Assembly: GCF_011045215.1 (NCBI RefSeq)
Contig: NZ_CP049201.1
Reading direction: 5' to 3' (one strand)
Source of the DNA: Escherichia coli
GTDB taxonomy: Bacteria > Pseudomonadota > Gammaproteobacteria > Enterobacterales > Enterobacteriaceae
DNA length: 64,000 nt
The position numbers and the translations under genes were made by a program. Of this stretch, positions 24,639 through 34,745 are shown one piece after another. Every line of letters starts with the position of its first letter. Positions within the stretch are counted from its first letter, which is position 1. The notes under the pieces were generated by a model. That model made no database searches, had not been told where the DNA came from, and saw nothing but the letters and a program-made list of their open reading frames with translations.

Positions 24639-24654
24639 TTAGCATTTTGGGTAA

Positions 24655-24681
24655 AAAGGTCGCTTCGGCGACCTTTTTTAT
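24655..24681 (+). terminator. tktA rho-independent terminator
   Basis: aaaggtcgc-ttcg-gcgaccttt followed by ttttatt. Confidence 0.6.
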
Positions 24682-24951: not shown

Positions 24952-25395
24952 ATGCGGCTTAGTGATTATTTTCCAGAATCATCAATCTCAGTTATACATT
25001 CAGCAAAAGATTGGCAGGAAGCTATCGATTTCTCGATGGTATCATTGCTGGATAAAAACTATATCAGCGAGAATTACATTCAGGCAATTAAAGATTCCAC
25101 CATTAACAATGGCCCTTATTATATTCTCGCACCAGGCGTGGCAATGCCTCATGCGCGACCGGAATGTGGGGCGCTTAAAACCGGGATGTCTTTGACATTA
25201 CTTAAACAAGGCGTTTATTTCCCGGGGGATGACGAACCGATTAAATTACTCATCGGACTTTCTGCTGCCGATGCCGATTCGCACATTGGCGCTATTCAGG
25301 CGTTAAGTGAATTACTGTGCGAAGAAGAAATACTCGAACAACTCTTAATAGCATCATCAGAAAAACAATTAGCGGACATTATCAGCCGCGGATAA
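24952..25395 (+). CDS. cmtB: PTS mannitol-type EIIA component (cryptic)
   Basis: 147 aa; EIIA(Mtl)-family size and conserved His region (GVAMPHARPE); precedes the EIICB gene. Confidence 0.8.
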   Translation: MRLSDYFPESSISVIHSAKDWQEAIDFSMVSLLDKNYISENYIQAIKDSTINNGPYYILAPGVAMPHARPECGALKTGMSLTLLKQGVYFPGDDEPIKLLIGLSAADADSHIGAIQALSELLCEEEILEQLLIASSEKQLADIISRG

Positions 25396-25422
25396 TTACT
25401 CTCTCCTCTACAGGATAATATT

Positions 25423-26811
25423 ATGGAAAACAAGTCTGCTCGTGCAAAGGTCCAGGCTTTTGGGGGCTTTTTGACTGCAATGGTCATCCCCAATATTGGT
25501 GCTTTTATTGCCTGGGGTTTTATTACTGCGTTATTTATTCCCACCGGTTGGCTGCCTAACGAACATTTCGCCAAAATTGTCGGCCCGATGATTACCTATT
25601 TATTGCCCGTGATGATTGGTTCTACCGGTGGTCATCTGGTCGGCGGTAAACGCGGCGCGGTTATGGGCGGAATAGGTACTATTGGTGTGATCGTCGGCGC
25701 AGAGATCCCGATGTTCCTTGGCTCAATGATTATGGGGCCGCTCGGTGGGCTGGTCATAAAATATGTCGATAAGGCACTGGAAAAACGCATACCTGCTGGT
25801 TTTGAGATGGTTATCAATAACTTCTCATTAGGTATCGCGGGGATGCTCCTTTGTCTGCTGGGTTTTGAAGTGATCGGCCCGGCGGTGTTAATTGCCAATA
25901 CTTTCGTCAAAGAGTGTATTGAGGCGCTGGTACATGCGGGTTATCTGCCTCTGCTGTCAGTCATCAATGAACCGGCGAAAGTGCTTTTCCTTAATAATGC
26001 GATCGATCAGGGCGTCTATTATCCGCTGGGAATGCAACAGGCTTCGGTTAACGGTAAATCCATCTTCTTTATGGTGGCCTCTAACCCAGGTCCGGGCCTG
26101 GGGCTGCTGCTGGCGTTTACCTTGTTTGGTAAAGGGATGAGTAAACGTTCTGCGCCCGGGGCGATGATTATTCACTTCCTCGGTGGGATCCACGAACTGT
26201 ATTTCCCATATGTGCTGATGAAGCCGCTGACTATTATTGCCATGATTGCGGGCGGTATGTCTGGCACCTAGATGTTTAACTTACTGGACGGTGGTCTGGT
26301 GGCTGGCCCAAGTCCGGGGTCTATCTTTGCTTACCTGGCGCTGACGCCGAAAGGTTCGTTCCTGGCGACAATTGCCGGTGTTACGGTAGGTACCCTGGTG
26401 TCCTTTGCTATCACTTCGCTGATACTGAAGATGGAAAAAACGGTGGAAACGGAGAGCGAAGATGAGTTTGCTCAGTCAGCCAATGCGGTTAAGGCGATGA
26501 AACAAGAGGGTGCATTCTCGTTAAGCAGGGTTAAGCGTATCGCCTTTGTTTGCGATGCGGGGATGGGCTCCAGTGCGATGGGCGCGACCACCTTCCGTAA
26601 ACGCCTGGAAAAAGCGGGGCTGGCAATTGAAGTAAAACATTACGCCATAGAAAACGTGCCTGCGGATGCGGATATCGTCGTTACTCATGCCAGTCTGGAA
26701 GGGCGCGTGAAACGTGTGACGGATAAACCACTGATATTGATTAATAACTATATTGGCGATCCAAAACTCGACACTTTATTTAATCAATTAACCGCCGAAC
26801 ATAAACACTGA
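25423..26811 (+). pseudogene. cmtA: PTS mannitol-type EIICB component, interrupted by in-frame amber codon
   Basis: ORFs 25423..26271 (282 aa) and 26272..26811 (179 aa) are contiguous in one frame, separated only by TAG at 26269..26271; combined length equals a 462-codon EIICB gene. Confidence 0.7.
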
Positions 26812-26825
26812 TTACAGAGGTAAAA

Positions 26826-28103
26826 ATGAAAACCAAAGTTGCTGCTATTTATGGCAAGCGGGATGTCCGTCTGCGCGAATTTGAACTGCCAGAAATTACC
26901 GATAATGAATTACTGGTGAGTGTGATTTCTGACAGCGTCTGTTTATCCACCTGGAAAGCGGCGTTACTCGGTAGTGAACATAAACGCGTACCCGACGATT
27001 TAGAAAATCATCCGGTCATTACCGGGCATGAATGTGCTGGGGTTATTGTCGAAGTGGGTAAAAATCTCACTGGCAAATATAAAAAAGGCCAGCGTTTTGT
27101 ATTGCAACCGGCGATGGGGTTACCAAGCGGATATTCAGCGGGCTACAGCTACGAATATTTTGGCGGCAATGCCACTTATATGATTATTCCCGAAATCGCC
27201 ATTAATTTGGGCTGCGTATTACCGTATCACGGCTCTTATTTTGCTGCGGCGTCGCTGGCAGAGCCTATGTGCTGCATTATTGGTGCTTATCATGCCAATT
27301 ATCACACCACGCAATATGTTTATGAGCATCGCATGGGCGTCAAACCTGGCGGCAATATTGCACTGCTGGCGTGTGCAGGTCCGATGGGCATTGGCGCTAT
27401 CGATTACGCCATTAACGGCGGCATACAACCGTCGCGGGTGGTGGTGGTCGATATCGACGACAAACGTCTGGCGCAGGTACAGAAGCTGCTGCCGGTGGAA
27501 CTGGCGGCCAGTAAAGGCATTGAGCTGGTGTATGTGAATACCAAAGGGATGAGCGATCCTGTCCAGATGCTGCGGGCGCTGACAGGAGATGCCGGGTTCG
27601 ATGACATTTTTGTTTATGCGGCGGTGCCTGCTGTCGTTGAGATGGCTGATGAATTACTGGCGGAAGATGGCTGTCTGAACTTCTTTGCCGGGCCGACGGA
27701 TAAAAACTTCAAAGTGCCGTTTAATTTCTACAACGTTCATTACAACAGCACGCACGTCGTCGGTACATCCGGCGGTTCAACGGACGACATGAAAGAGGCA
27801 ATTGCCCTTAGCGCCACTGGGCAGTTACAGCCGTCGTTTATGGTGACCCATATCGGTGGCCTGGATGCGGTGCCAGAAACCGTGCTCAATCTGCCGGATA
27901 TCCCTGGCGGTAAAAAACTCATTTATAACGGCGTGACCATGCCGCTCACTGCCATTGCCGATTTTGCCGAAAAAGGCAAAACCGAACCGCTGTTTAAAGA
28001 GTTGGCGCGGCTGGTTGAGGAAACGCACGGCATCTGGAATGAACAGGCCGAGAAATATCTGCTGGCACAATTTGGCGTTGATATCGGGGAGGCCGCGCAA
28101 TGA
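26826..28103 (+). CDS. yggP: Zn-dependent medium-chain dehydrogenase/reductase, YggP-like
   Basis: 425 aa; MDR zinc-site Cys/His (GHECAG) and Rossmann glycine motif (CAGPMGIGA). Confidence 0.8.
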   Translation: MKTKVAAIYGKRDVRLREFELPEITDNELLVSVISDSVCLSTWKAALLGSEHKRVPDDLENHPVITGHECAGVIVEVGKNLTGKYKKGQRFVLQPAMGLPSGYSAGYSYEYFGGNATYMIIPEIAINLGCVLPYHGSYFAAASLAEPMCCIIGAYHANYHTTQYVYEHRMGVKPGGNIALLACAGPMGIGAIDYAINGGIQPSRVVVVDIDDKRLAQVQKLLPVELAASKGIELVYVNTKGMSDPVQMLRALTGDAGFDDIFVYAAVPAVVEMADELLAEDGCLNFFAGPTDKNFKVPFNFYNVHYNSTHVVGTSGGSTDDMKEAIALSATGQLQPSFMVTHIGGLDAVPETVLNLPDIPGGKKLIYNGVTMPLTAIADFAEKGKTEPLFKELARLVEETHGIWNEQAEKYLLAQFGVDIGEAAQ

Positions 28104-29065
28104 TGTCCCTGGCGTGGCCATTATTTCGCGTTACGGAACAGGCAGCATTGGCTGCCTGGCCGCAAACCGGATGTGGCGACAAAAATAAAATTGATGGCCT
28201 GGCGGTCACCGCGATGCGCCAGGCATTAAACGACGTCGCTTTTCGTGGACGAGTGGTTATCGGCGAAGGAGAAATTGACCATGCGCCGATGCTGTGGATT
28301 GGCGAAGAGGTGGGCAAAGGCGATGGGCCAGAAGTCGATATCGCGGTTGATCCCATTGAAGGCACGCGGATGGTGGCGATGGGGCAGAGCAATGCGCTGG
28401 CGGTCATGGCTTTCGCCCCTCGAGATAGCCTGTTACATGCGCCTGATATGTATATGAAAAAGCTGGTTGTTAATCGACTGGCTGCCGGGGCGATTGATCT
28501 GTCTTTGCCTCTGGCGGACAACTTGCGTAACGTGGCGCGGGCGTTAGGTAAACCGCTGGACAAGCTGCGCATGGTTACGCTGGATAAACCGCGTCTGAGT
28601 GCCGCGATTGAGGAAGCAACACAGCTGGGGGTGAAAGTTTTTGCCCTGCCGGATGGCGATGTCGCCGCCAGCGTGCTGACCTGCTGGCAGGATAATCCTT
28701 ACGACGTGATGTACACCATCGGCGGCGCGCCGGAAGGCGTGATTTCTGCCTGTGCAGTCAAAGCGTTAGGCGGAGATATGCAGGCGGAATTAATCGATTT
28801 TTGTCAGGCTAAAGGGGATTACACGGAGAATCGGCAGATTGCAGAGCAGGAACGCAAGCGTTGCAAGGCAATGGGCGTTGACGTTAACCGTGTGTACTCG
28901 CTCGACGAACTGGTGAGGGGGAACGATATCCTCTTTAGCGCTACGGGCGTCACGGGCGGCGAGCTGGTGAACGGTATCCAACAGACGGCGAATGGGGTGC
29001 GGACGCAGACATTACTGATCGGCGGCGCGGACCAAACGTGTAATATAATAGACTCCCTGCATTGA
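28100..29065 (+). CDS. yggF: Class II (GlpX-type) fructose-1,6-bisphosphatase homologue
   Basis: 321 aa; GlpX-like sequence; start overlaps yggP stop. Confidence 0.8.
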   Translation: MMSLAWPLFRVTEQAALAAWPQTGCGDKNKIDGLAVTAMRQALNDVAFRGRVVIGEGEIDHAPMLWIGEEVGKGDGPEVDIAVDPIEGTRMVAMGQSNALAVMAFAPRDSLLHAPDMYMKKLVVNRLAAGAIDLSLPLADNLRNVARALGKPLDKLRMVTLDKPRLSAAIEEATQLGVKVFALPDGDVAASVLTCWQDNPYDVMYTIGGAPEGVISACAVKALGGDMQAELIDFCQAKGDYTENRQIAEQERKRCKAMGVDVNRVYSLDELVRGNDILFSATGVTGGELVNGIQQTANGVRTQTLLIGGADQTCNIIDSLH

Positions 29066-29086
29066 TGGTGATCTATCGGAAGACCA

Positions 29087-29596
29087 ATGGCGACGCTGAC
29101 AGAAGATGATGTGCTTGAGCAACTGGATGCACAGGACAATTTATTTTCATTTATGAAAACTGCGCATTCTATTTTGCTCCAGGGAATACGCCAGTTTCTG
29201 CCGTCGCTGTTTGTCGATAACGATGAAGAGATCGTGGAATATGCAGTGAAGCCGTTACTTGCCCAAAGCGGCCCGCTTGACGATATTGATGTTGCGCTGC
29301 GTTTGATTTATGCGCTGGGGAAAATGGATAAATGGCTGTACGCCGATATCACTCATTTTTCCCAGTTCTGGCATTACCTGAACGAACAGGATGAAGCGCC
29401 CGGATTTGCCGATGACATGACCTGGGATTTTATCAGCAACGTCAATAGCATAACCCGCAATGCGATGCTCTATGACGCGTTAAAAGCGATGAAGTTCGCT
29501 GATTTCGCCGTCTGGTCAGAGGCGCGTTTTAGCGGGATGGTCAAAACGGCGCTGACGCTGGCAGTAACGACCACCTTAAAGGAATTAACGCCGTGA
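29087..29596 (+). CDS. yggD: MtlR-like small protein (YggD/FumE)
   Basis: 169 aa, MATLTEDDVLEQLDAQDNLFSFMKTAHSILLQGIRQF. Confidence 0.7.
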   Translation: MATLTEDDVLEQLDAQDNLFSFMKTAHSILLQGIRQFLPSLFVDNDEEIVEYAVKPLLAQSGPLDDIDVALRLIYALGKMDKWLYADITHFSQFWHYLNEQDEAPGFADDMTWDFISNVNSITRNAMLYDALKAMKFADFAVWSEARFSGMVKTALTLAVTTTLKELTP

Positions 29597-30306
29597 AAAT
29601 TGAATTAACGGTGAATGGGCTGAACGTGCAAGCGCAGTACCATGAGGAAGAGATAAAACGCGTGCATAAACCGTTGCTGCGCATGTTGGCGGCCTTACAG
29701 ACGGTAAATCCGCAGCGGCGAACCGTGGTTTTTCTTTGCGCTCCGCCGGGAACGGGAAAATCGACCCTGACTACCTTCTGGGAATATCTCGCGCAACAAG
29801 ACCCCGAACTGCCCGCTATCCAGACGCTCCCGATGGATGGTTTTCACCATTACAATAGCTGGCTGGATGCGCATCAGCTACGCCCGTACAAAGGCGCGCC
29901 GCAGACATTTGATGTGGCAAAACTGGCAGAAAAATTGCGCCAGGCAGTGCAGGGCGACTGTACGTGGCCGCAGTACGATCGACAAAAACATGATCCGGTA
30001 GAAGATGCGTTGCATGTTACCGCACCAATAATCATCGTCGAAGGAAACTGGCTATTGCTGGATGACGAGAAGTGGCGCCAGCTTGCGCAATTTTGTGATT
30101 TCTCGATCTTTATTAACGCGCCCGCAGCGGCGTTGCGGGAGCGTCTGGTGGGGCGCAAGCTGGCGGGAGGGTTATCGCTGGCAGACGCAGAAGCTTTTTA
30201 TGACCGTACCGACGGGCCGAATGTTCGCCGGGTGCTGGAAGAGAGTCTGCCTGCAAATTTGACCTTAATGATGACCGCTACGGGTGAATATCGTCTGGTG
30301 GATTAA
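29593..30306 (+). CDS. yggC: P-loop nucleoside/pantothenate kinase-like protein YggC
   Basis: 237 aa; Walker A APPGTGKST. Confidence 0.8.
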   Translation: MKIELTVNGLNVQAQYHEEEIKRVHKPLLRMLAALQTVNPQRRTVVFLCAPPGTGKSTLTTFWEYLAQQDPELPAIQTLPMDGFHHYNSWLDAHQLRPYKGAPQTFDVAKLAEKLRQAVQGDCTWPQYDRQKHDPVEDALHVTAPIIIVEGNWLLLDDEKWRQLAQFCDFSIFINAPAAALRERLVGRKLAGGLSLADAEAFYDRTDGPNVRRVLEESLPANLTLMMTATGEYRLVD

Positions 30307-30955
30307 TGTTCCTGATTAGACCATCTTCCAGTCGCACCACACGAGAGAAATGACGCCGGGTAAATGCGGCGTCATGACTGATTGCTACGACGCTCGTGCC
30401 TCGCTGGCGGCACTTCTCCAGCCAGCTTTCAAACACGCTCAACCAATTTTCGTCAAAATCCCGACTCGGCTCGTCCAGCAGCAATAGTGGCGGAGAGAGT
30501 GCTTCCAGGCAGGCGACGGCGACCATCCGTCGCTGCGCACTATGCAGATCCAACGGGTGCGCGCTGGCAGTGTCTGCTAACTGACAACATTGCAGGGCAG
30601 CATGGGTACGTTGAGTGATTTCATCCGCCGGGCATTTTTGCAGTTTCAAACCAAATGCGATCTCGTCAGCGACGGTGCTGTGAAAAAGTTGGTTTTCCGC
30701 TTCCTGAAACAGTACGCCAATCTTTGCCGCGCGCTGGCGGTTTTTCAGGTTTTTCATCGCCTGTTGTTGCCGCATAACCGTACCGGCTGTGGGCGTAAGA
30801 AGACCTGCCATTACTCGTAACAGCGTCGATTTCCCTGCGCCATTGTCACCGGTCAGCGCCAACCATTCACCTTGTTTGAGTTGCAGAGAAATGTCGCAAA
30901 GACAATCCGTTGCCGCGCCAGGCCAGCGATAAGATATCTGATTTAACGTTAACAT
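30278..30955 (-). CDS. ABC-type ATPase (EcfA-like) with degenerate signature motif
   Basis: Walker A GDNGAGKST, Walker B LLLLDEP, but signature region reads LHSAQRRM instead of LSGGQ; start chosen at MLTLNQISYRW; 3' end overlaps yggC 3' end by 29 bp. Confidence 0.7.
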   Translation of the reverse strand: MLTLNQISYRWPGAATDCLCDISLQLKQGEWLALTGDNGAGKSTLLRVMAGLLTPTAGTVMRQQQAMKNLKNRQRAAKIGVLFQEAENQLFHSTVADEIAFGLKLQKCPADEITQRTHAALQCCQLADTASAHPLDLHSAQRRMVAVACLEALSPPLLLLDEPSRDFDENWLSVFESWLEKCRQRGTSVVAISHDAAFTRRHFSRVVRLEDGLIRNINPPDDIHP

Positions 30956-31632
30956 AGTGGCTGGAGCGCTCCGTTTTGCAATTGCCACGCTTGCTGGCAG
31001 TAGTTCAGGAAAGGTGTGCGATGACGTTCAAAAAGAATAATCAGCGAACCACGTTCAAACGCCCAGTGTTGTAATCGCTGCAACAGCATTTCGCTGGCCT
31101 GCGGCGTCAGGCGGCTAAAGGCTTCATCAAGAATTAATAGCTTTGGCTGCATCGCGATGGCGCAGGCGATGACCACGCGCTGTGTCTCTCCACCGGAGAG
31201 TGTTGCTGGGTGACGATGGCGCAACGGCTGGCACTCGGTCAGAGTCAGGGCGGCATCAATCCGCGCCATAATCTCTGCTTCAGCAAGACACAGATTTTCT
31301 GGCCCAAAGGCAACTTCTTCTTCCACGCTAAAGGTACAGCCGGAGAGCTGCAAATAGGGCGATTGCTGGACGAGCTGGATGGTGGCGGATTGTTCATTAA
31401 GCGGGAGATGCCCAATGGGCGTACCGAGGAGCGTCCCCGTGCCTGTTATCTCTCCTGGCAGAAAGTCCGGATACCAGCCCGCCATCAGCTGTGCCAGCGT
31501 ACTTTTGCCACTGCCGTTGTCACCAAAGATGGCGACCATCCCCGGTTTGACATAGTGAAAGTTATAACAGAACGGAGGATGCGTTGAGTGTGTCGGGCAA
31601 TAACGGAACTGTTCTAACGTAACCATATCCAC
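30949..31632 (-). CDS. ABC-type ATPase (EcfA-like), canonical motifs
   Basis: Walker A GDNGSGKST, signature LSGGETQRV, Walker B LLILDEA; start uncertain by a few codons. Confidence 0.75.
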   Translation of the reverse strand: MDMVTLEQFRYCPTHSTHPPFCYNFHYVKPGMVAIFGDNGSGKSTLAQLMAGWYPDFLPGEITGTGTLLGTPIGHLPLNEQSATIQLVQQSPYLQLSGCTFSVEEEVAFGPENLCLAEAEIMARIDAALTLTECQPLRHRHPATLSGGETQRVVIACAIAMQPKLLILDEAFSRLTPQASEMLLQRLQHWAFERGSLIILFERHRTPFLNYCQQAWQLQNGALQPLC

Positions 31633-32321
31633 GCTCCGAATTCTGTCAGCATCAGCAAGATCATGGTGTAACGCGCTACGCGTTGTAGGGTGCTATCGGC
31701 TGGTGCCCACAACGTTGTTCGTCGGTTGTGGATCCGAAATGCCCGCATATCCAGCGCCGCACCGCGGACAGCAAGATCGTTTAGCGCATTGTGTGTTAGC
31801 GGAATAATTAACGCGGGCATCGCACGTAAACGCTGATACCAGCCCTCATCCAGCGGCACGCCGCGGGCACGCTGCGCTTCATGAATAATCGCTAATTGCC
31901 GTTTTAACTGCTCAACGACCAATAACGGACCGGCAAACAGATAAGCGACGCCTGGCGGCAGGCGAGAAGCAAACAGAGCGCGGATAAAACATTGCACGGG
32001 GACGTACTGCATCCACAACTGTGAGGTTGAAACAATCGCCAGAATCCGCAACCAGAGCGTAATAGCATGCGTCCAACGCTCCGGCGAACGCGGCGTGCCG
32101 CTTAGCCATTCTGTTAGCCAGCCACCGTGTACCAGCCACAGCCCGGCTCCCAGCGAGAACATCAGCCAGACGACATATTTTGCCCGCCGCCGCGTGGCCT
32201 TTAGCGCAATAAGGCAGAAAAAGGTCGCCGCGCTATAGACTGGCAGTATTGTCTGTGTGGGCAGGATAAGCGTGGTGCAGGCCGCCAATGCCCATAGTGT
32301 TAATGAGGTAAATGGATGCAT
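31614..32321 (-). CDS. ECF transporter T component (EcfT/CbiQ-like)
   Basis: 235-aa multi-TM protein with two Ala-Arg-Gly-type coupling motifs (EAQRARGVP and DLAVRGAAL) in the C-terminal half; directly upstream of two ABC ATPase genes. Confidence 0.65.
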   Translation of the reverse strand: MHPFTSLTLWALAACTTLILPTQTILPVYSAATFFCLIALKATRRRAKYVVWLMFSLGAGLWLVHGGWLTEWLSGTPRSPERWTHAITLWLRILAIVSTSQLWMQYVPVQCFIRALFASRLPPGVAYLFAGPLLVVEQLKRQLAIIHEAQRARGVPLDEGWYQRLRAMPALIIPLTHNALNDLAVRGAALDMRAFRIHNRRTTLWAPADSTLQRVARYTMILLMLTEFGAWIWLR

Positions 32322-32900
32322 TTAGCGCACGGCAGCCATTGCCGGAAAATGGCGCGTGGTGCGAATCGGCAGCTGGCGCAGTAAAAGCCAGACAATCACC
32401 GCTGTAAGAGTTTTATCGACCAGGTTCGCGCCTATCACTGTAATTGCCACCGACTCCACCAGGTTTTGCCCCATCGAGTGCATCCAGGCAACGAACAAAT
32501 CGGCTCCGCTACCGGTGACACCGCCGAACAGCGCAGTACGCAGCGGTACAGCGACGACCGTTACCGCAAGCGTAATAATCACGCCGCTGACAACGACTTT
32601 TGGCAGGGTGCGGAACCAACCCGCTCGCGCCAGCCAACCAGCGACCAGGCCGATGACCATCGCCACGGGCGCAAATGCGGCGGCGATCGGGTCGGTCAGC
32701 AATCCCCAGAGTAAATTGGTCAGTAAGCCGGTCAGCATCCCGATCACCGGACCAAGCAGTACCGCGCTAATAAGTGTGCCGATGGAGTCGAGAAATATAG
32801 GTAATTTGACCATGCTGGCCAGTTGCCCGCCGATCATATTGATGGCGATAGATATAACGATCAACACCAGTGCCTGACTGGAAAAGTGGCTACGCGCCAT
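32322..32900 (-). CDS. Small integral membrane protein, probable ECF substrate-specific (S) component
   Basis: ~192 aa from MARSHFSSQALVLIVISIAIN (ORF-track upstream extension would overlap the PPC gene); 5-6 predicted TM segments; position directly upstream of T component. Confidence 0.5.
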   Translation of the reverse strand: MARSHFSSQALVLIVISIAINMIGGQLASMVKLPIFLDSIGTLISAVLLGPVIGMLTGLLTNLLWGLLTDPIAAAFAPVAMVIGLVAGWLARAGWFRTLPKVVVSGVIITLAVTVVAVPLRTALFGGVTGSGADLFVAWMHSMGQNLVESVAITVIGANLVDKTLTAVIVWLLLRQLPIRTTRHFPAMAAVR

Positions 32901-32922
32901 AAGAAAACCTCTCTGAAAGTAG

Positions 32923-33354
32923 TTATTTAACGGGGGAAATATGCAACTCGTCGTAACCAGAAAGCGCGCAAGGTTGGCGGCTAAACGCCAGTTCCTCAAG
33001 GCTACCGATCACCAGTTCAAGCGTGGTCCGCACGGTACAGCCGGGCATCATATGACCGCCAAGCATCGTGCCGTGTGGATCGGAAACGCAGAGATGAAGA
33101 TGCTCACCACTCTGTTCCAACGTGCCGTTTAGTGAGATCACTTCGAATGTACCGTTCAGGAGCGTGGTGCCTTCTTGCCCGGCATAGCGCAAGGCGATGT
33201 CAGTCAGGCTACCGGTACAGCCTGCAATCCAGGCGGCATGAAGTTGCTGCTGCTGTGCAAAAGCGTGTAGCTGGGAAAAAACTTCCTGCCCGGGGAGGAG
33301 GCGCAGTGCGTAAAAGCGTGCGGAGGAAGAATATGGGTAGGGCAATGTCATCAT
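32923..33354 (-). CDS. PPC/DUF296-domain protein
   Basis: 143 aa; pattern G.FEV.SLNGTL....HLH......G...GGH...GC.V....E.V resembles the PPC (plants-and-prokaryotes conserved, DUF296) fold; first gene of the operon. Confidence 0.6.
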   Translation of the reverse strand: MMTLPYPYSSSARFYALRLLPGQEVFSQLHAFAQQQQLHAAWIAGCTGSLTDIALRYAGQEGTTLLNGTFEVISLNGTLEQSGEHLHLCVSDPHGTMLGGHMMPGCTVRTTLELVIGSLEELAFSRQPCALSGYDELHISPVK

Positions 33355-33588
33355 TGGAGTACTCCGAAACTCGGACGTATTGCGGATAATATCGACGCTG
33401 CATCAGTCATATTCTGATATAAGTCAGGGTTTGTGACGGCACAACGAAAAGATTTTGCTACGCTTATTCGTGATTCTGCAAAGTGGAATAAATTCCACAG
33501 GGGCGGGGCTGAAAACGTGACGTAAGTCAGATATTTGTTTTCTTTGACTGGACAATCATTCCTTTTATTCCACGTTTCGCTTATCCTA

Positions 33589-33603
33589 GCTGAAGCGTTT
33601 CAG
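33589..33603. promoter_or_regulatory. Candidate Cra (FruR)-type operator upstream of epd
   Basis: gctgaagcgtttcag palindrome (TGAA-N6-TTCA core) ~125 bp upstream of epd start. Confidence 0.35.
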
Positions 33604-33725
33604 TCGATTAAATGTTCGACAATTAACCAATCAGTCGCAGTTTGCGACAGGTAAGGTTTCCCCGGACGATTTGCTGGATTACTCTGTCTGGCAAATTTGC
33701 TCAGGGAAAACCTTGCAGGAGATCT

Positions 33726-34745
33726 ATGACCGTACGCGTAGCGATAAATGGCTTCGGTCGCATCGGGCGTAATGTGGTTCGTGCTTTGTATGAATCCGGA
33801 CGCCGGGCGGAAATTACCGTGGTGGCAATCAACGAACTGGCGGATGCTGCGGGCATGGCGCATTTGTTGAAATATGACACCAGCCATGGCCGTTTTGCAT
33901 GGGAAGTACGACAGGAACGCGATCAACTTTTTGTTGGTGATGACGCCATCCGCGTATTGCATGAACGTTCACTGCAATCGCTCCCCTGGCGTGAACTTGG
34001 CGTTGATGTAGTCCTCGACTGCACCGGCGTATATGGCTCCCGCGAGCATGGCGAAGCGCATATTGCCGCCGGGGCCAAAAAAGTGCTCTTTTCACATCCT
34101 GGCAGTAACGATCTCGACGCGACCGTTGTTTACGGCGTCAATCAGGATCAACTTCGTGCGGAACACCGCATCGTTTCTAACGCTTCCTGTACCACGAATT
34201 GCATAATTCCCGTCATCAAATTGTTAGATGATGCGTACGGTATTGAGTCCGGCACTGTGACCACAATTCACTCCGCCATGCACGATCAACAGGTTATTGA
34301 TGCATACCATCCTGACCTGCGTCGCACCCGGGCAGCCAGCCAGTCGATCATTCCGGTCGATACTAAACTGGCCGCCGGTATCACACGATTTTTTCCGCAA
34401 TTTAACGATCGCTTTGAAGCGATTGCGGTACGTGTGCCAACCATAAATGTGACGGCAATCGATTTAAGCGTGACGGTGAAGAAACCTGTAAAAGCCAATG
34501 AAGTCAACCTGTTGCTGCAAAAAGCAGCACAAGGTGCATTTCATGGTATAGTTGACTATACGGAATTGCCGTTGGTCTCTGTAGATTTTAACCACGATCC
34601 ACACAGTGCCATTGTCGATGGCACCCAAACCCGGGTCAGTGGCGCACACCTGATCAAAACGTTGGTCTGGTGCGATAACGAATGGGGCTTTGCTAACCGA
34701 ATGCTCGACACGACGTTAGCTATGGCTACTGTTGCTTTCAGGTAA
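33726..34745 (+). CDS. epd: D-erythrose-4-phosphate dehydrogenase
   Basis: Start at [27 protein letters not shown] (339 aa); GAPDH family with active-site SNASCTTNC. Confidence 0.93.

What the first reader, a model, noticed from the sequence alone, without database searches (positions are those of the whole stretch)
30278..30306. Convergent 29-bp overlap of yggC and the last ECF ATPase gene with no terminator space
The 3' ends of yggC (+) and the degenerate ATPase gene (-) overlap by 29 bp, so both operons end without an intervening terminator. This is the kind of junction expected where a block of genes was inserted or deleted precisely at a gene end; it also implies transcriptional collision between the cmt-ygg operon and the ECF operon.
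Basis: seen in the sequence. Interest (0 to 1): 0.3.

Follow-up and report, generated by a model that had tools for sequence, protein, structure and literature searches.

The report
Old tail-to-tail overlap of two operons
The last genes of two facing operons in E. coli share 29 bases on opposite strands; this is real, but it is an ordinary gene overlap inherited from before the enterobacterial genera split, not the scar of a recent island insertion.

Summary
yggC (+, 29593..30306) and the last ECF-type ABC ATPase gene (-, 30278..30955) overlap by exactly 29 bp. RefSeq annotates the same overlap, and the junction occurs in 3318 of 5426 complete E. coli genomes.

- **Age:** the same orthologous pair overlaps in Salmonella, Citrobacter, Silvania, Superficieibacter, Phytobacter and other Escherichia species (11-92 bp). 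The relative reading frame is always the same, so the junction is old.
- **Length:** 29 bp is what a neutral run-on of the ATPase frame into antisense yggC would give.
- **Four layouts of the tktA-epd interval:** both blocks overlapping (here); ECF only; cmt-ygg only (K-12); both blocks in the opposite order (Buttiauxella). In the three non-overlapping layouts each operon ends at a hairpin terminator and the ATPase is shorter.
- **Origin:** the junction is therefore best read as an old illegitimate join that lost both terminators.
- **E. coli ECF-minus state:** it is not a clean deletion at the gene end. Its yggC 3' third is a deeply divergent allele.

No intrinsic terminator is predicted at the junction. 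Rho-dependent termination or polymerase collision is inferred, not shown. The finding is ordinary and of low interest.

The parts
29593..30306 (+). yggC, a nucleoside/nucleotide kinase family protein of 237 aa and the last gene of the cmtB-cmtA-yggP-glpX-fumE-yggC operon. Stop TAA at 30304-30306.
   Evidence: ORF list. Full-length match to NCBIfam NF006742. Annotated by PGAP in L001.
30278..30955 (-). Second ABC ATPase of the dedicated ECF transporter operon, 225 aa from the PGAP start (the longest ORF reaches 30988). Stop TAG at 30278-30280. The signature motif is LHSAQ; the other ATP-binding motifs are intact.
30278..30306 (.). The 29-bp tail-to-tail overlap. On the + strand it carries the last 8 sense codons of YggC, two bases of the codon before them, and the stop (…ATGEYRLVD*). 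On the - strand it carries the last two bases of an Asn codon, seven sense codons of the ATPase and its stop (…NPPDDIHP*). First codon positions face each other, and each gene's third position faces the other's second (overlap = 2 mod 3).
   Evidence: Read directly from the sequence. The same frame relation holds in all 19 junctions measured.
30949..31626 (-). First ABC ATPase of the ECF operon.
31614..32321 (-). ECF transmembrane T component (CbiQ-like).
32322..32900 (-). ECF S component. Its nearest family is CD3073 (134 bits, below the 180-bit cut-off). The substrate is unknown.
32923..33354 (-). PCC/PPC-domain protein, the first gene of the ECF operon.
33483..33505 (.). Right-hand end of the segment that differs between ECF-plus and ECF-minus genomes. 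It contains the palindrome GTGGAATAAATTCCAC (33483-33498), which is homologous to the right arm of the hairpin that follows yggC in ECF-minus genomes.
   Evidence: Sequence comparison. blastn blocks resume at window 33505.
24952..29596 (+). Rest of the cmt-ygg operon: cmtB 24952-25395; cmtA 25423-26811, with an in-frame TAG at 26269-26271; yggP 26826-28103; glpX 28100-29065; fumE 29087-29596.
24653..24680 (.). tktA terminator (A5 tract, GGTCGC-TTCG-GCGACC hairpin, T6 tract). In genomes with only the ECF block, the orthologous terminator sits 4-14 nt from the ATPase stop.

Best explanation
This is a genuine, old and stably inherited tail-to-tail overlap between the last genes of two convergent operons.

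**Most likely history**
- In an ancestor of Escherichia, Salmonella, Citrobacter and their relatives, the ECF transporter operon and the cmt-ygg operon were joined 3' end to 3' end by one illegitimate recombination.
- That join removed both terminators: the hairpin that follows yggC elsewhere, and the bidirectional tktA terminator that the ATPase gene abuts elsewhere.
- The ATPase reading frame has no stop of its own outside yggC. It runs on into the antisense strand of yggC until the first in-frame stop.
- The resulting short C-terminal tail is variable and dispensable, and its sequence is largely dictated by the YggC C-terminus on the other strand.
- With no spacer left, only in-frame indels and stop-codon shifts are tolerated. 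The two frames are therefore locked while the overlap length drifts (11-92 bp; 29 bp in Escherichia).

**E. coli polymorphism**
The ECF presence/absence polymorphism within E. coli is a separate matter. ECF-minus strains such as K-12 carry a different, deeply divergent allele of the yggC 3' third plus the terminator-bearing spacer, presumably brought in by homologous recombination.

**Transcription**
Both operons must terminate inside the other operon's 3' coding region. This is probably Rho-dependent or caused by polymerase collision, and would produce complementary 3' ends.

**Status of each step**
- Shown: the overlap, its conservation and frame lock, the four layouts, the terminators in the non-overlapping layouts, and the mosaic K-12 allele.
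- Inferred: the direction of the rearrangement, the mode of termination, and the absence of a selected function.
For: - **Overlap and annotation:**. The junction is present in 3318 of 5426 E. coli genomes at 95% identity or more.
- **Orthologous overlaps:** 29 bp in Escherichia, 32 in Salmonella, 44 in Citrobacter, 26 in Silvania, 41 in Superficieibacter, 68 in C. koseri, 92 in UBA5654 and 11 in Phytobacter. All equal 2 mod 3.
- **Frame lock:** the distance between conserved anchors in the two genes is 160, 172, 184 or 205 nt. The classes differ only by multiples of 3.
- **ECF-only genomes** (C. freundii, Klebsiella pasteurii, Leclercia): the ATPase is 216-219 aa and ends 4-14 nt from the tktA terminator hairpin.
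- **cmt-ygg-only genomes:** yggC is followed by a hairpin. In C. braakii it folds at -33.6 kcal/mol with z = -5.2.
- **Buttiauxella sp. B2:** it has both blocks in the opposite order, with no overlap and both terminators.
- **Citrobacter boundaries:** homology between the both-blocks layout (L017) and the cmt-ygg-only layout (L014) ends exactly at the yggC stop. Homology between L017 and the ECF-only layout (L061) starts 20 nt beyond that stop, which leaves a short junction-specific filler.
- **Neutral run-on model:** the median run to the first stop is 47 nt.
- **ATPase tail:** it varies in length and sequence, whereas the YggC G-E/G-Y-R motif on the opposite strand is also kept in species without an adjacent ECF operon.
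- **Mosaic K-12 allele:** the first 474 nt of yggC are 88-94% identical to other Escherichia. The last 240 nt are 89.6% identical to one other ECF-minus E. coli and 69% or less to everything else.
- **Escherichia ancestry:** E. albertii, E. whittamii and (as remnants) two cryptic clades carry the ECF block, so ECF-plus is the ancestral state of the genus.
- **Termination:** no terminator or significant structure lies at the junction, and C-rich/G-poor stretches occur on both read-through RNAs.
Against: - **Direction of events:** it rests on parsimony over a modest sample of about 65 loci and on the presence of terminators, not on a reconciled phylogeny. An ancestral overlapping layout, from which the other layouts arose, is not excluded.
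- **Phytobacter:** it has the overlap (11 bp), yet its ATPase keeps a canonical-looking G-x-I-x3-G-T-P-D-E-V tail. This does not fit a simple 'stop lost, frame ran on' story and implies later in-frame deletions in the other lineages.
- **Frame-lock statistics:** only four independent distance classes are available, so the evidence is weak (about 1 in 27 by chance).
- **Neutrality:** conservation of the arrangement across genera is also what selection for antisense coupling would give.
- **Transcription:** there are no transcript data.
- **K-12-type donor:** it was not found. The species scan used peptide patterns from the window's allele and could have missed it.
Confidence: 0.7

Rival explanations
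1. One reading: the ECF genes are a recently acquired or lost island in E. coli, and the overlap is the precise indel boundary at the end of yggC.
For: - The ECF block is polymorphic in E. coli, present in 3317 of 5426 genomes.
- In Citrobacter, homology between ECF-plus and ECF-minus genomes ends exactly at the yggC stop.
Against: - The same overlap and frame occur in Salmonella, Citrobacter, Phytobacter and others.
- ECF-plus is the state in E. albertii, E. whittamii and, as remnants, in cryptic clades.
- There is no GC deviation, no flanking repeat and no mobility gene.
- In E. coli the divergence between haplotypes starts about 250-300 bp inside yggC and reaches 57% identity.
- ECF-minus genomes carry about 45 nt of hairpin sequence that is absent from ECF-plus genomes, so neither state is a simple indel of the other.
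Confidence: 0.08
2. The overlap is maintained by selection as an excludon-type switch. Convergent transcription of the two operons through each other's 3' ends gives transcriptional interference and double-stranded RNA cleaved by RNase III. Expression of the cmt-ygg sugar-alcohol operon and of the ECF transporter would then be mutually exclusive.
For: - The arrangement and frame are conserved across genera.
- No terminator separates the operons, so overlapping transcripts are unavoidable if both are transcribed.
- Convergent excludons are common in E. coli (165 mapped in MG1655). Excludon pairs have short intergenic distances, and the authors set out to test whether they show higher synteny (PMC12288877).
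Against: - Either block is readily lost, and the pair also exists un-overlapped in Buttiauxella.
- The overlap length drifts as a neutral model predicts.
- No functional link between the two operons was found.
- The frame lock follows automatically from the absence of a spacer.
- There are no expression data.
Confidence: 0.12
3. Annotation artefact: one of the two genes really ends earlier, or the ATPase is a decaying pseudogene, so no two functional coding sequences overlap.
For: - The ATPase has a non-canonical signature motif.
- Its last residues are poorly conserved.
- ECF-only genomes manage with a shorter ATPase.
Against: - There is no in-frame stop before 30278.
- The length is 225 aa throughout Escherichia, in clusters of hundreds to more than a thousand member sequences.
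- The odd signature motif is itself conserved in all orthologues.
- YggC is full length against its NCBIfam model.
- The ATPase is 66-97% identical across genera, with intact Walker A, Walker B and H-loop.
Confidence: 0.03

Closest known systems
[quoted passage not shown]
   Same: Two bona fide genes on opposite strands share their 3' ends. The overlap is short. By elimination from the phase definitions in bioRxiv 10.1101/2025.11.07.687268, the phase here is the one that paper calls phase 1, the commonest for convergent overlaps longer than 4 nt. The origin fits the accepted route of stop-codon loss or displacement followed by run-on to the next stop (PMC3887535 describes this route for same-strand overlaps).
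   Different: Nothing essential differs. At 29 bp it is longer than the very common 4-nt class. It joins the ends of two whole operons rather than two single genes.
Convergent excludons / overlapping 3' transcription units (E. coli map in PMC12288877)
   Same: The units are convergent, with no room for separate terminators. Overlapping antisense 3' ends are expected whenever both are transcribed.
   Different: In most mapped E. coli excludons (146 of 165) a predicted terminator lies inside the neighbour's transcription unit. Here no intrinsic terminator is predicted at all. Transcript overlap and mutual repression are untested. MG1655, the mapped strain, lacks the ECF block.
Bidirectional intrinsic terminators shared by convergent genes
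   Same: This is how the same ATPase gene ends in ECF-only genomes and in Buttiauxella: an A-tract, GC hairpin and T-tract shared with tktA.
   Different: In the window this terminator stays with tktA (24653-24680), 5.6 kb away from the ATPase. The junction itself has none.
Dedicated ('group I') ECF transporter operons with their own A, A', T and S genes (classification recalled from the ECF literature, not tested here)
   Same: The operon encodes an S component, a T component and two ABC ATPases.
   Different: The ATPases are short (225 aa) and lack the C-terminal extension of the EcfA/EcfA' profiles; alignment stops at about position 231 of 279. One signature motif is non-canonical. The operon starts with a PCC-domain protein. 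The substrate is unknown and no riboswitch was found.

Membership tests
Convergent overlapping gene pair | Both overlapping ORFs are real, conserved protein-coding genes. | tested here: met
   YggC is full length against NF006742. The ATPase matches ABC_tran and ECF ATPase models, and orthologues of constant length are found across Escherichia.
Convergent overlapping gene pair | The 3' ends, including both stop codons, lie within each other's coding sequence on opposite strands. | tested here: met
   Stops lie at 30304-30306 (+) and 30278-30280 (-), giving a 29-bp overlap.
Convergent overlapping gene pair | The overlap is conserved in orthologous pairs, so it is not a strain-specific error. 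| tested here: met
   All 19 junctions measured, from at least 8 genera or species groups, overlap in the same frame. The junction occurs in 3318 E. coli genomes.
Excludon | Transcripts of the two units overlap in antisense. | not testable with these tools
   No transcript data are available. Overlap is only inferred from the lack of a terminator.
Excludon | Expression of one unit represses the other, through interference or RNase III processing. | not testable with these tools
   This needs strand-specific RNA-seq or reporter fusions.
Excludon | A terminator lies embedded within the neighbouring transcription unit. | tested here: inconclusive
   The only terminator-like hit on the + strand is a weak one at 30724-30740. 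There is none on the - strand from 29000 to 31800, and the total number of hits does not exceed shuffled sequence.
Recently inserted genomic island boundary | There is a sharp homology break against island-free genomes of the same species. | tested here: not met
   In E. coli the identity decays gradually through yggC, from 98% to 57%, and the last 240 nt are a foreign allele. A sharp break at the stop codon is seen only in a Citrobacter pair.
Recently inserted genomic island boundary | Signs of mobility are present: compositional deviation, flanking direct repeats, an integrase or a tRNA. | tested here: not met
   GC is 52-57%, like the flanks. No boundary repeats were found. Only transporter genes and the PCC gene are annotated.
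Recently inserted genomic island boundary | The phylogenetic distribution is restricted and patchy within the species only. | tested here: not met
   The block sits at the same locus, with the same junction, in many genera.

The most novel reading that the evidence does not exclude
The terminator-less overlap is kept by selection as an antisense (excludon-like) coupling. It would make expression of the cmt-ygg sugar-alcohol/gluconeogenic operon and of the ECF transporter of unknown substrate mutually exclusive, and this coupling would have been maintained since before the Escherichia-Salmonella-Citrobacter split.
Probability: 0.1. Interest if true: 0.35.

Novelty: new member of a known kind. 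Interest (0 to 1): 0.15.

Why it matters
It matters little beyond this locus. It is a clean worked example of how a tail-to-tail gene overlap can arise when two operons are joined without their terminators. It also shows how the lack of a spacer then locks the two reading frames for a very long time while the overlap length drifts.

There are three practical consequences.
- The tktA-epd interval of Enterobacteriaceae exists in at least four layouts, which is useful for typing and for annotating this region.
- The E. coli 'ECF island' polymorphism is an exchange of old haplotypes, not a recent gain.
- Anyone deleting yggC or the ECF operon in an ECF-plus strain (O157:H7, O104:H4, ST131 and others) will clip the other gene's 3' end unless the construct is designed around the overlap.

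Tried and rejected
- **Intrinsic terminators or stable RNA structure at the junction:** none found.
- **Known RNA families or a riboswitch** that might regulate the ECF operon or name its substrate: no Rfam match at E<=1 in 29000-34000.
- **Mobile-element signatures around the ECF block:** no GC anomaly and no boundary repeats.
- **A functional link between YggC-type kinases and ECF transporters.** The lead was Alkalibacterium loci where a yggC homologue lies near ECF ATPase genes. Those turned out to be the housekeeping ecfA-ecfA'-ecfT-truA cluster, so the adjacency is taken as coincidence.
- **A donor for the K-12-type yggC 3' end** among the fetched species loci: nothing better than 69% identity.
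- **Literature on yggC, yggD or cmtA:** only one incidental mention.
- **Homology of the PCC-cmtB spacer of Buttiauxella with the window's intergenic regions:** too diverged to be informative, apart from a 19-nt hairpin upstream of the PCC gene.
- **The ATPase tail motif (T/P)P-x-D-I as a relic of the canonical ABC 'G-T-P-x-E-V' motif:** left undecided. The D-I-H part is forced by the antisense YggC G-E-Y-R codons, and in Phytobacter the canonical motif lies outside yggC.

Full report
**1. The observation**

The window carries yggC on the + strand (29593..30306, stop TAA at 30304-30306). On the - strand there is an ABC ATPase ORF whose stop TAG is read from 'cta' at 30278-30280. The two share 30278..30306, which is 29 bp. 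The best-matching E. coli genome (AB66, 99.5% over 5 kb) is annotated by PGAP with the same two CDS and the same overlap. This sets the ATPase start at window 30955, giving 225 aa.

Both genes are real.
- YggC aligns end to end with NCBIfam NF006742 (508 bits; cut-off 402).
- The ATPase matches Pfam ABC_tran, and several NCBIfam ABC profiles align up to residues 233-235 of the 236-aa ORF.

'Degenerate' is true only of the signature motif, which reads LHSAQ where LSGGQ is expected. Walker A, Q-loop, Walker B and the H-loop are intact, and the unusual motif is conserved in all orthologues read.

The island consists of a PCC-domain gene, an ECF S component (nearest family CD3073, below cut-off), a T component and two ATPases. 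It lies between yggC and epd.

**2. How common it is**

- A 241-bp query across the junction finds 3318 of 5426 complete E. coli genomes at 95% identity or more. It is 100% identical in O157:H7, and both genes are annotated under the match.
- The remaining genomes (about 2100) are K-12-like, with yggC followed directly by epd.
- The large E. coli, E. marmotae and E. ruysiae ATPase clusters are all 225 aa.

**3. The overlap is old**

A scan of one genome per species with YggC returned 56 loci. Fifteen of them have the ECF operon convergent on yggC. A look-up of a Salmonella orthologue shows the same full arrangement: epd, ECF operon, then convergent yggC-fumE-glpX-yggP-cmtA-cmtB, then tktA.

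The measured overlaps are:

| Lineage | Overlap (bp) |
|---|---|
| Escherichia (window, L001, E. albertii, E. whittamii, an E. coli-like MAG, and a remnant in strain E1V33) | 29 |
| Salmonella | 32 |
| Six Citrobacter loci | 44 |
| Silvania | 26 |
| Superficieibacter | 41 |
| C. koseri | 68 |
| An uncultured Enterobacteriaceae genome (UBA5654) | 92 |
| Phytobacter | 11 |

- Every value equals 2 mod 3.
- The distance between a conserved YggC motif (GPNV) and the ATPase H-loop is 160, 172, 184 or 205 nt. These classes differ only by multiples of three.
- With no spacer, only in-frame indels and stop shifts are tolerated, so the frames are locked while the length drifts.
- By elimination from the definitions in bioRxiv 10.1101/2025.11.07.687268, this is the phase reported as commonest for convergent overlaps longer than 4 nt.

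**4. Is 29 bp more than chance?**

No. I took 43 long ORFs of the window as stand-ins for genes; a few of these are probably spurious antisense ORFs. An antisense frame entering the 3' end in this phase meets its first stop after a median of 47 nt (mean 66). In 74% of cases it runs 29 nt or more, in 14% it stops by 11 nt, and in 19% it runs 92 nt or more. The observed range of 11-92 bp is what a neutral run-on predicts.

**5. Four layouts of the tktA-epd interval**

- **A (this window):** tktA, cmt-ygg operon, then the convergent ECF operon, then epd. The genes overlap.
- **B (C. freundii, Klebsiella pasteurii, Leclercia):** the ECF block alone.
  - The ATPase is 216-219 aa.
  - In C. freundii and K. 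pasteurii its stop lies about 4-14 nt from the tktA terminator, which has an A-tract, a GC hairpin and a T-tract.
- **C (K-12-type E. coli, C. braakii, Raoultella, Lelliottia, most Buttiauxella and others):** the cmt-ygg block alone.
  - yggC is followed by a hairpin.
  - In C. braakii it folds at -33.6 kcal/mol with z = -5.2. The K-12 version is weaker.
- **E (Buttiauxella sp. B2):** both blocks in the opposite order.
  - The ECF block faces tktA and uses its terminator.
  - The PCC gene lies divergent from cmtB, yggC has its own hairpin before epd, and nothing overlaps.

Citrobacter gives the breakpoints.
- Homology between layouts A (L017) and C (L014) ends exactly at the yggC stop. On the other side it resumes at a GGAATAA(A/T)TT motif, which is the right arm of the C-type hairpin.
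- Homology between layouts A (L017) and B (L061), which are 91% identical across the ECF block, starts 20 nt beyond the yggC stop.
- This leaves a short filler that is specific to the junction.

Layout C carries about 45 nt of hairpin that layout A lacks. Layouts B and E carry a terminator-adjacent ATPase end that layout A lacks. Layout A is therefore not a simple parent of the others.

The most economical reading is as follows.
- A Buttiauxella-like order, or the separate blocks, came first.
- Layouts B and C are single deletions of that order.
- Layout A arose once, by an illegitimate join of the yggC 3' end to the ATPase 3' end that lost both terminators.

This polarity is inferred. The sample is small, and Phytobacter is a complication. 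It has the overlap but keeps a canonical-looking ABC tail (GKIAADGTPDEVLTR), which would require later in-frame deletions in the other lineages.

**6. The ATPase tail is the passive partner**

- Its last 8-25 residues vary in length and sequence between genera, and B-type proteins do without them.
- On the other strand, the YggC G-(E/G)-Y-(R/H) motif is kept even in species whose yggC has no ECF neighbour, such as Buttiauxella and Limnobaculum.
- In Escherichia, Salmonella and Citrobacter the ATPase residues D-I-(H/R) are simply the antisense reading of those codons.

**7. The E. coli polymorphism is not a clean indel at the gene end**

- Identity between the window and a K-12-type genome is about 98% in fumE and about 90% in the first part of yggC. 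It falls to 66% in the 3' third of yggC and to 57% in its last 100 bp.
- At protein level the last third of K-12-type YggC is 63% identical to the window. It is only 48-65% identical to the YggC of every other genus, whereas the first two thirds are 90-97% identical to other Escherichia.
- At nucleotide level the last 240 nt match only another ECF-minus E. coli (89.6%). No other locus exceeds 69%.
- E. albertii and E. whittamii are ECF-plus.
- Two cryptic-clade Escherichia have independent internal deletions, at window 30526-33331 and about 30516-33267. These leave about 240 bp of the ATPase 3' end and an intact yggC.

ECF-plus is therefore ancestral for the genus, and recent deletions do not fall at the gene end. 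The K-12-type state is a replaced haplotype from an unsampled, distant source. The ECF block shows no GC anomaly and no boundary repeats.

**8. Transcription**

- No terminator-like site lies near the junction, and the total number of such sites in 29000-34000 is no greater than in shuffled sequence.
- Neither strand folds better than shuffles at the junction.
- There is no Rfam match.
- Both read-through RNAs contain C-rich, G-poor stretches. C/G is 2.07 at 80-158 nt past the yggC stop, and 1.4-1.8 at 40-280 nt past the ATPase stop. This is compatible with Rho loading once translation has stopped.
- Convergent transcription units with overlapping 3' ends are common in E. coli and can interfere with each other (PMC12288877; PMC7154746 and bioRxiv 10.1101/2022.10.23.513370).
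- Whether that happens here is untested. In this particular strain, cmtA carries a nonsense mutation (see the items noticed in passing). By established knowledge of Rho-dependent polarity, this would be expected to lower transcription reaching yggC.

**9. Verdict**

It is wrong about which event and when, because the join is an old feature shared across genera rather than the edge of a recent E. coli island.

It is an undescribed but ordinary example of a known kind, annotated in thousands of RefSeq genomes. A search of the held papers for yggC, yggD and cmtA returned only one incidental mention of two of them, and no account of this junction. Interest is low.

Noticed in passing
window 26269-26271 (base 26270): cmtA carries an in-frame TAG where E. 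coli O157:H7 has TGG (Trp). This splits the 462-codon gene into 282- and 179-codon ORFs. None of the 5401 complete E. coli genomes that match this 201-bp stretch is 100% identical; the best is 99.5%, which is this one base. It is therefore either a private nonsense mutation or a sequencing error. It may be polar on yggP…yggC.
   Followed up: yes
window 33362-33376 (- strand mRNA, just upstream of the PCC start at 33354): A small palindrome, TCCGAAACTCGGA, lies just upstream of the PCC gene start. Its 3' arm on the mRNA contains the GGAG of the likely ribosome-binding site. It is conserved in Citrobacter (L017) and Buttiauxella (L065) although the surrounding non-coding DNA has diverged. It may be a translational control hairpin for the ECF operon. 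There is no Rfam match.
   Followed up: partly
window 33483-33498, and 33564-33576: A perfect palindrome, GTGGAATAAATTCCAC, sits at the right-hand boundary of the ECF segment. A further complementary copy, TTTATTCCACG, lies 71 nt downstream in the epd upstream region. K-12-type genomes have three copies of the TTTATTCC/GGAATAAA motif. It could be a protein-binding site or a relic of the terminator hairpin.
   Followed up: partly
L003 6740-6912 and L006 6686-6924 (Escherichia sp. MOD1-EC7003 and E1V33): Two cryptic-clade Escherichia have lost most of the ECF operon through different internal deletions of about 2.75-2.8 kb, from inside the last ATPase gene to the start of the PCC gene. Both keep the 3' end of the ATPase gene that overlaps yggC.
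   Followed up: yes
L065 (Buttiauxella sp. B2), whole locus: The ECF block and the cmt-ygg block are both present but in the opposite order (tktA, ECF, cmt-ygg, epd). They have a 447-bp AT-rich divergent promoter region and no gene overlap. This is a fourth layout of the interval.
   Followed up: yes
L002 2568-2885 (K-12-type E. coli), corresponding to window ~30067-30306: The 3' third of K-12-type yggC and the spacer after it are as far from the other Escherichia alleles as those of other genera are (69% nt identity or less). The 5' two thirds are normal for the genus, so the gene is mosaic. The donor was not identified.
   Followed up: partly
window 30349-30375: A 9-bp GC-rich inverted repeat (ATGACGCCG…CGGCGTCAT) lies inside the ATPase coding region, 43-69 nt past the yggC stop. 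It is conserved in ECF-only genomes because it encodes the H-loop region (…SHDAAFT…). No U-tract follows, so it is not an obvious terminator. It might stabilise a processed 3' end of the yggC transcript.
   Followed up: no
window 30278-31626: Both ECF ATPases are short (225 aa) and lack the C-terminal extension of the EcfA/EcfA' models. One has the non-canonical signature LHSAQ, which predicts one degenerate ATP site. The S component is nearest to the uncharacterised CD3073 family. The substrate is unknown.
   Followed up: partly
hit H30 (E. coli PS3Tanimalfeces2): One E. coli genome matches only the epd end of the query and has cmtA annotated next to epd. This suggests a larger deletion that removed yggP to the ECF operon.
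   Followed up: no
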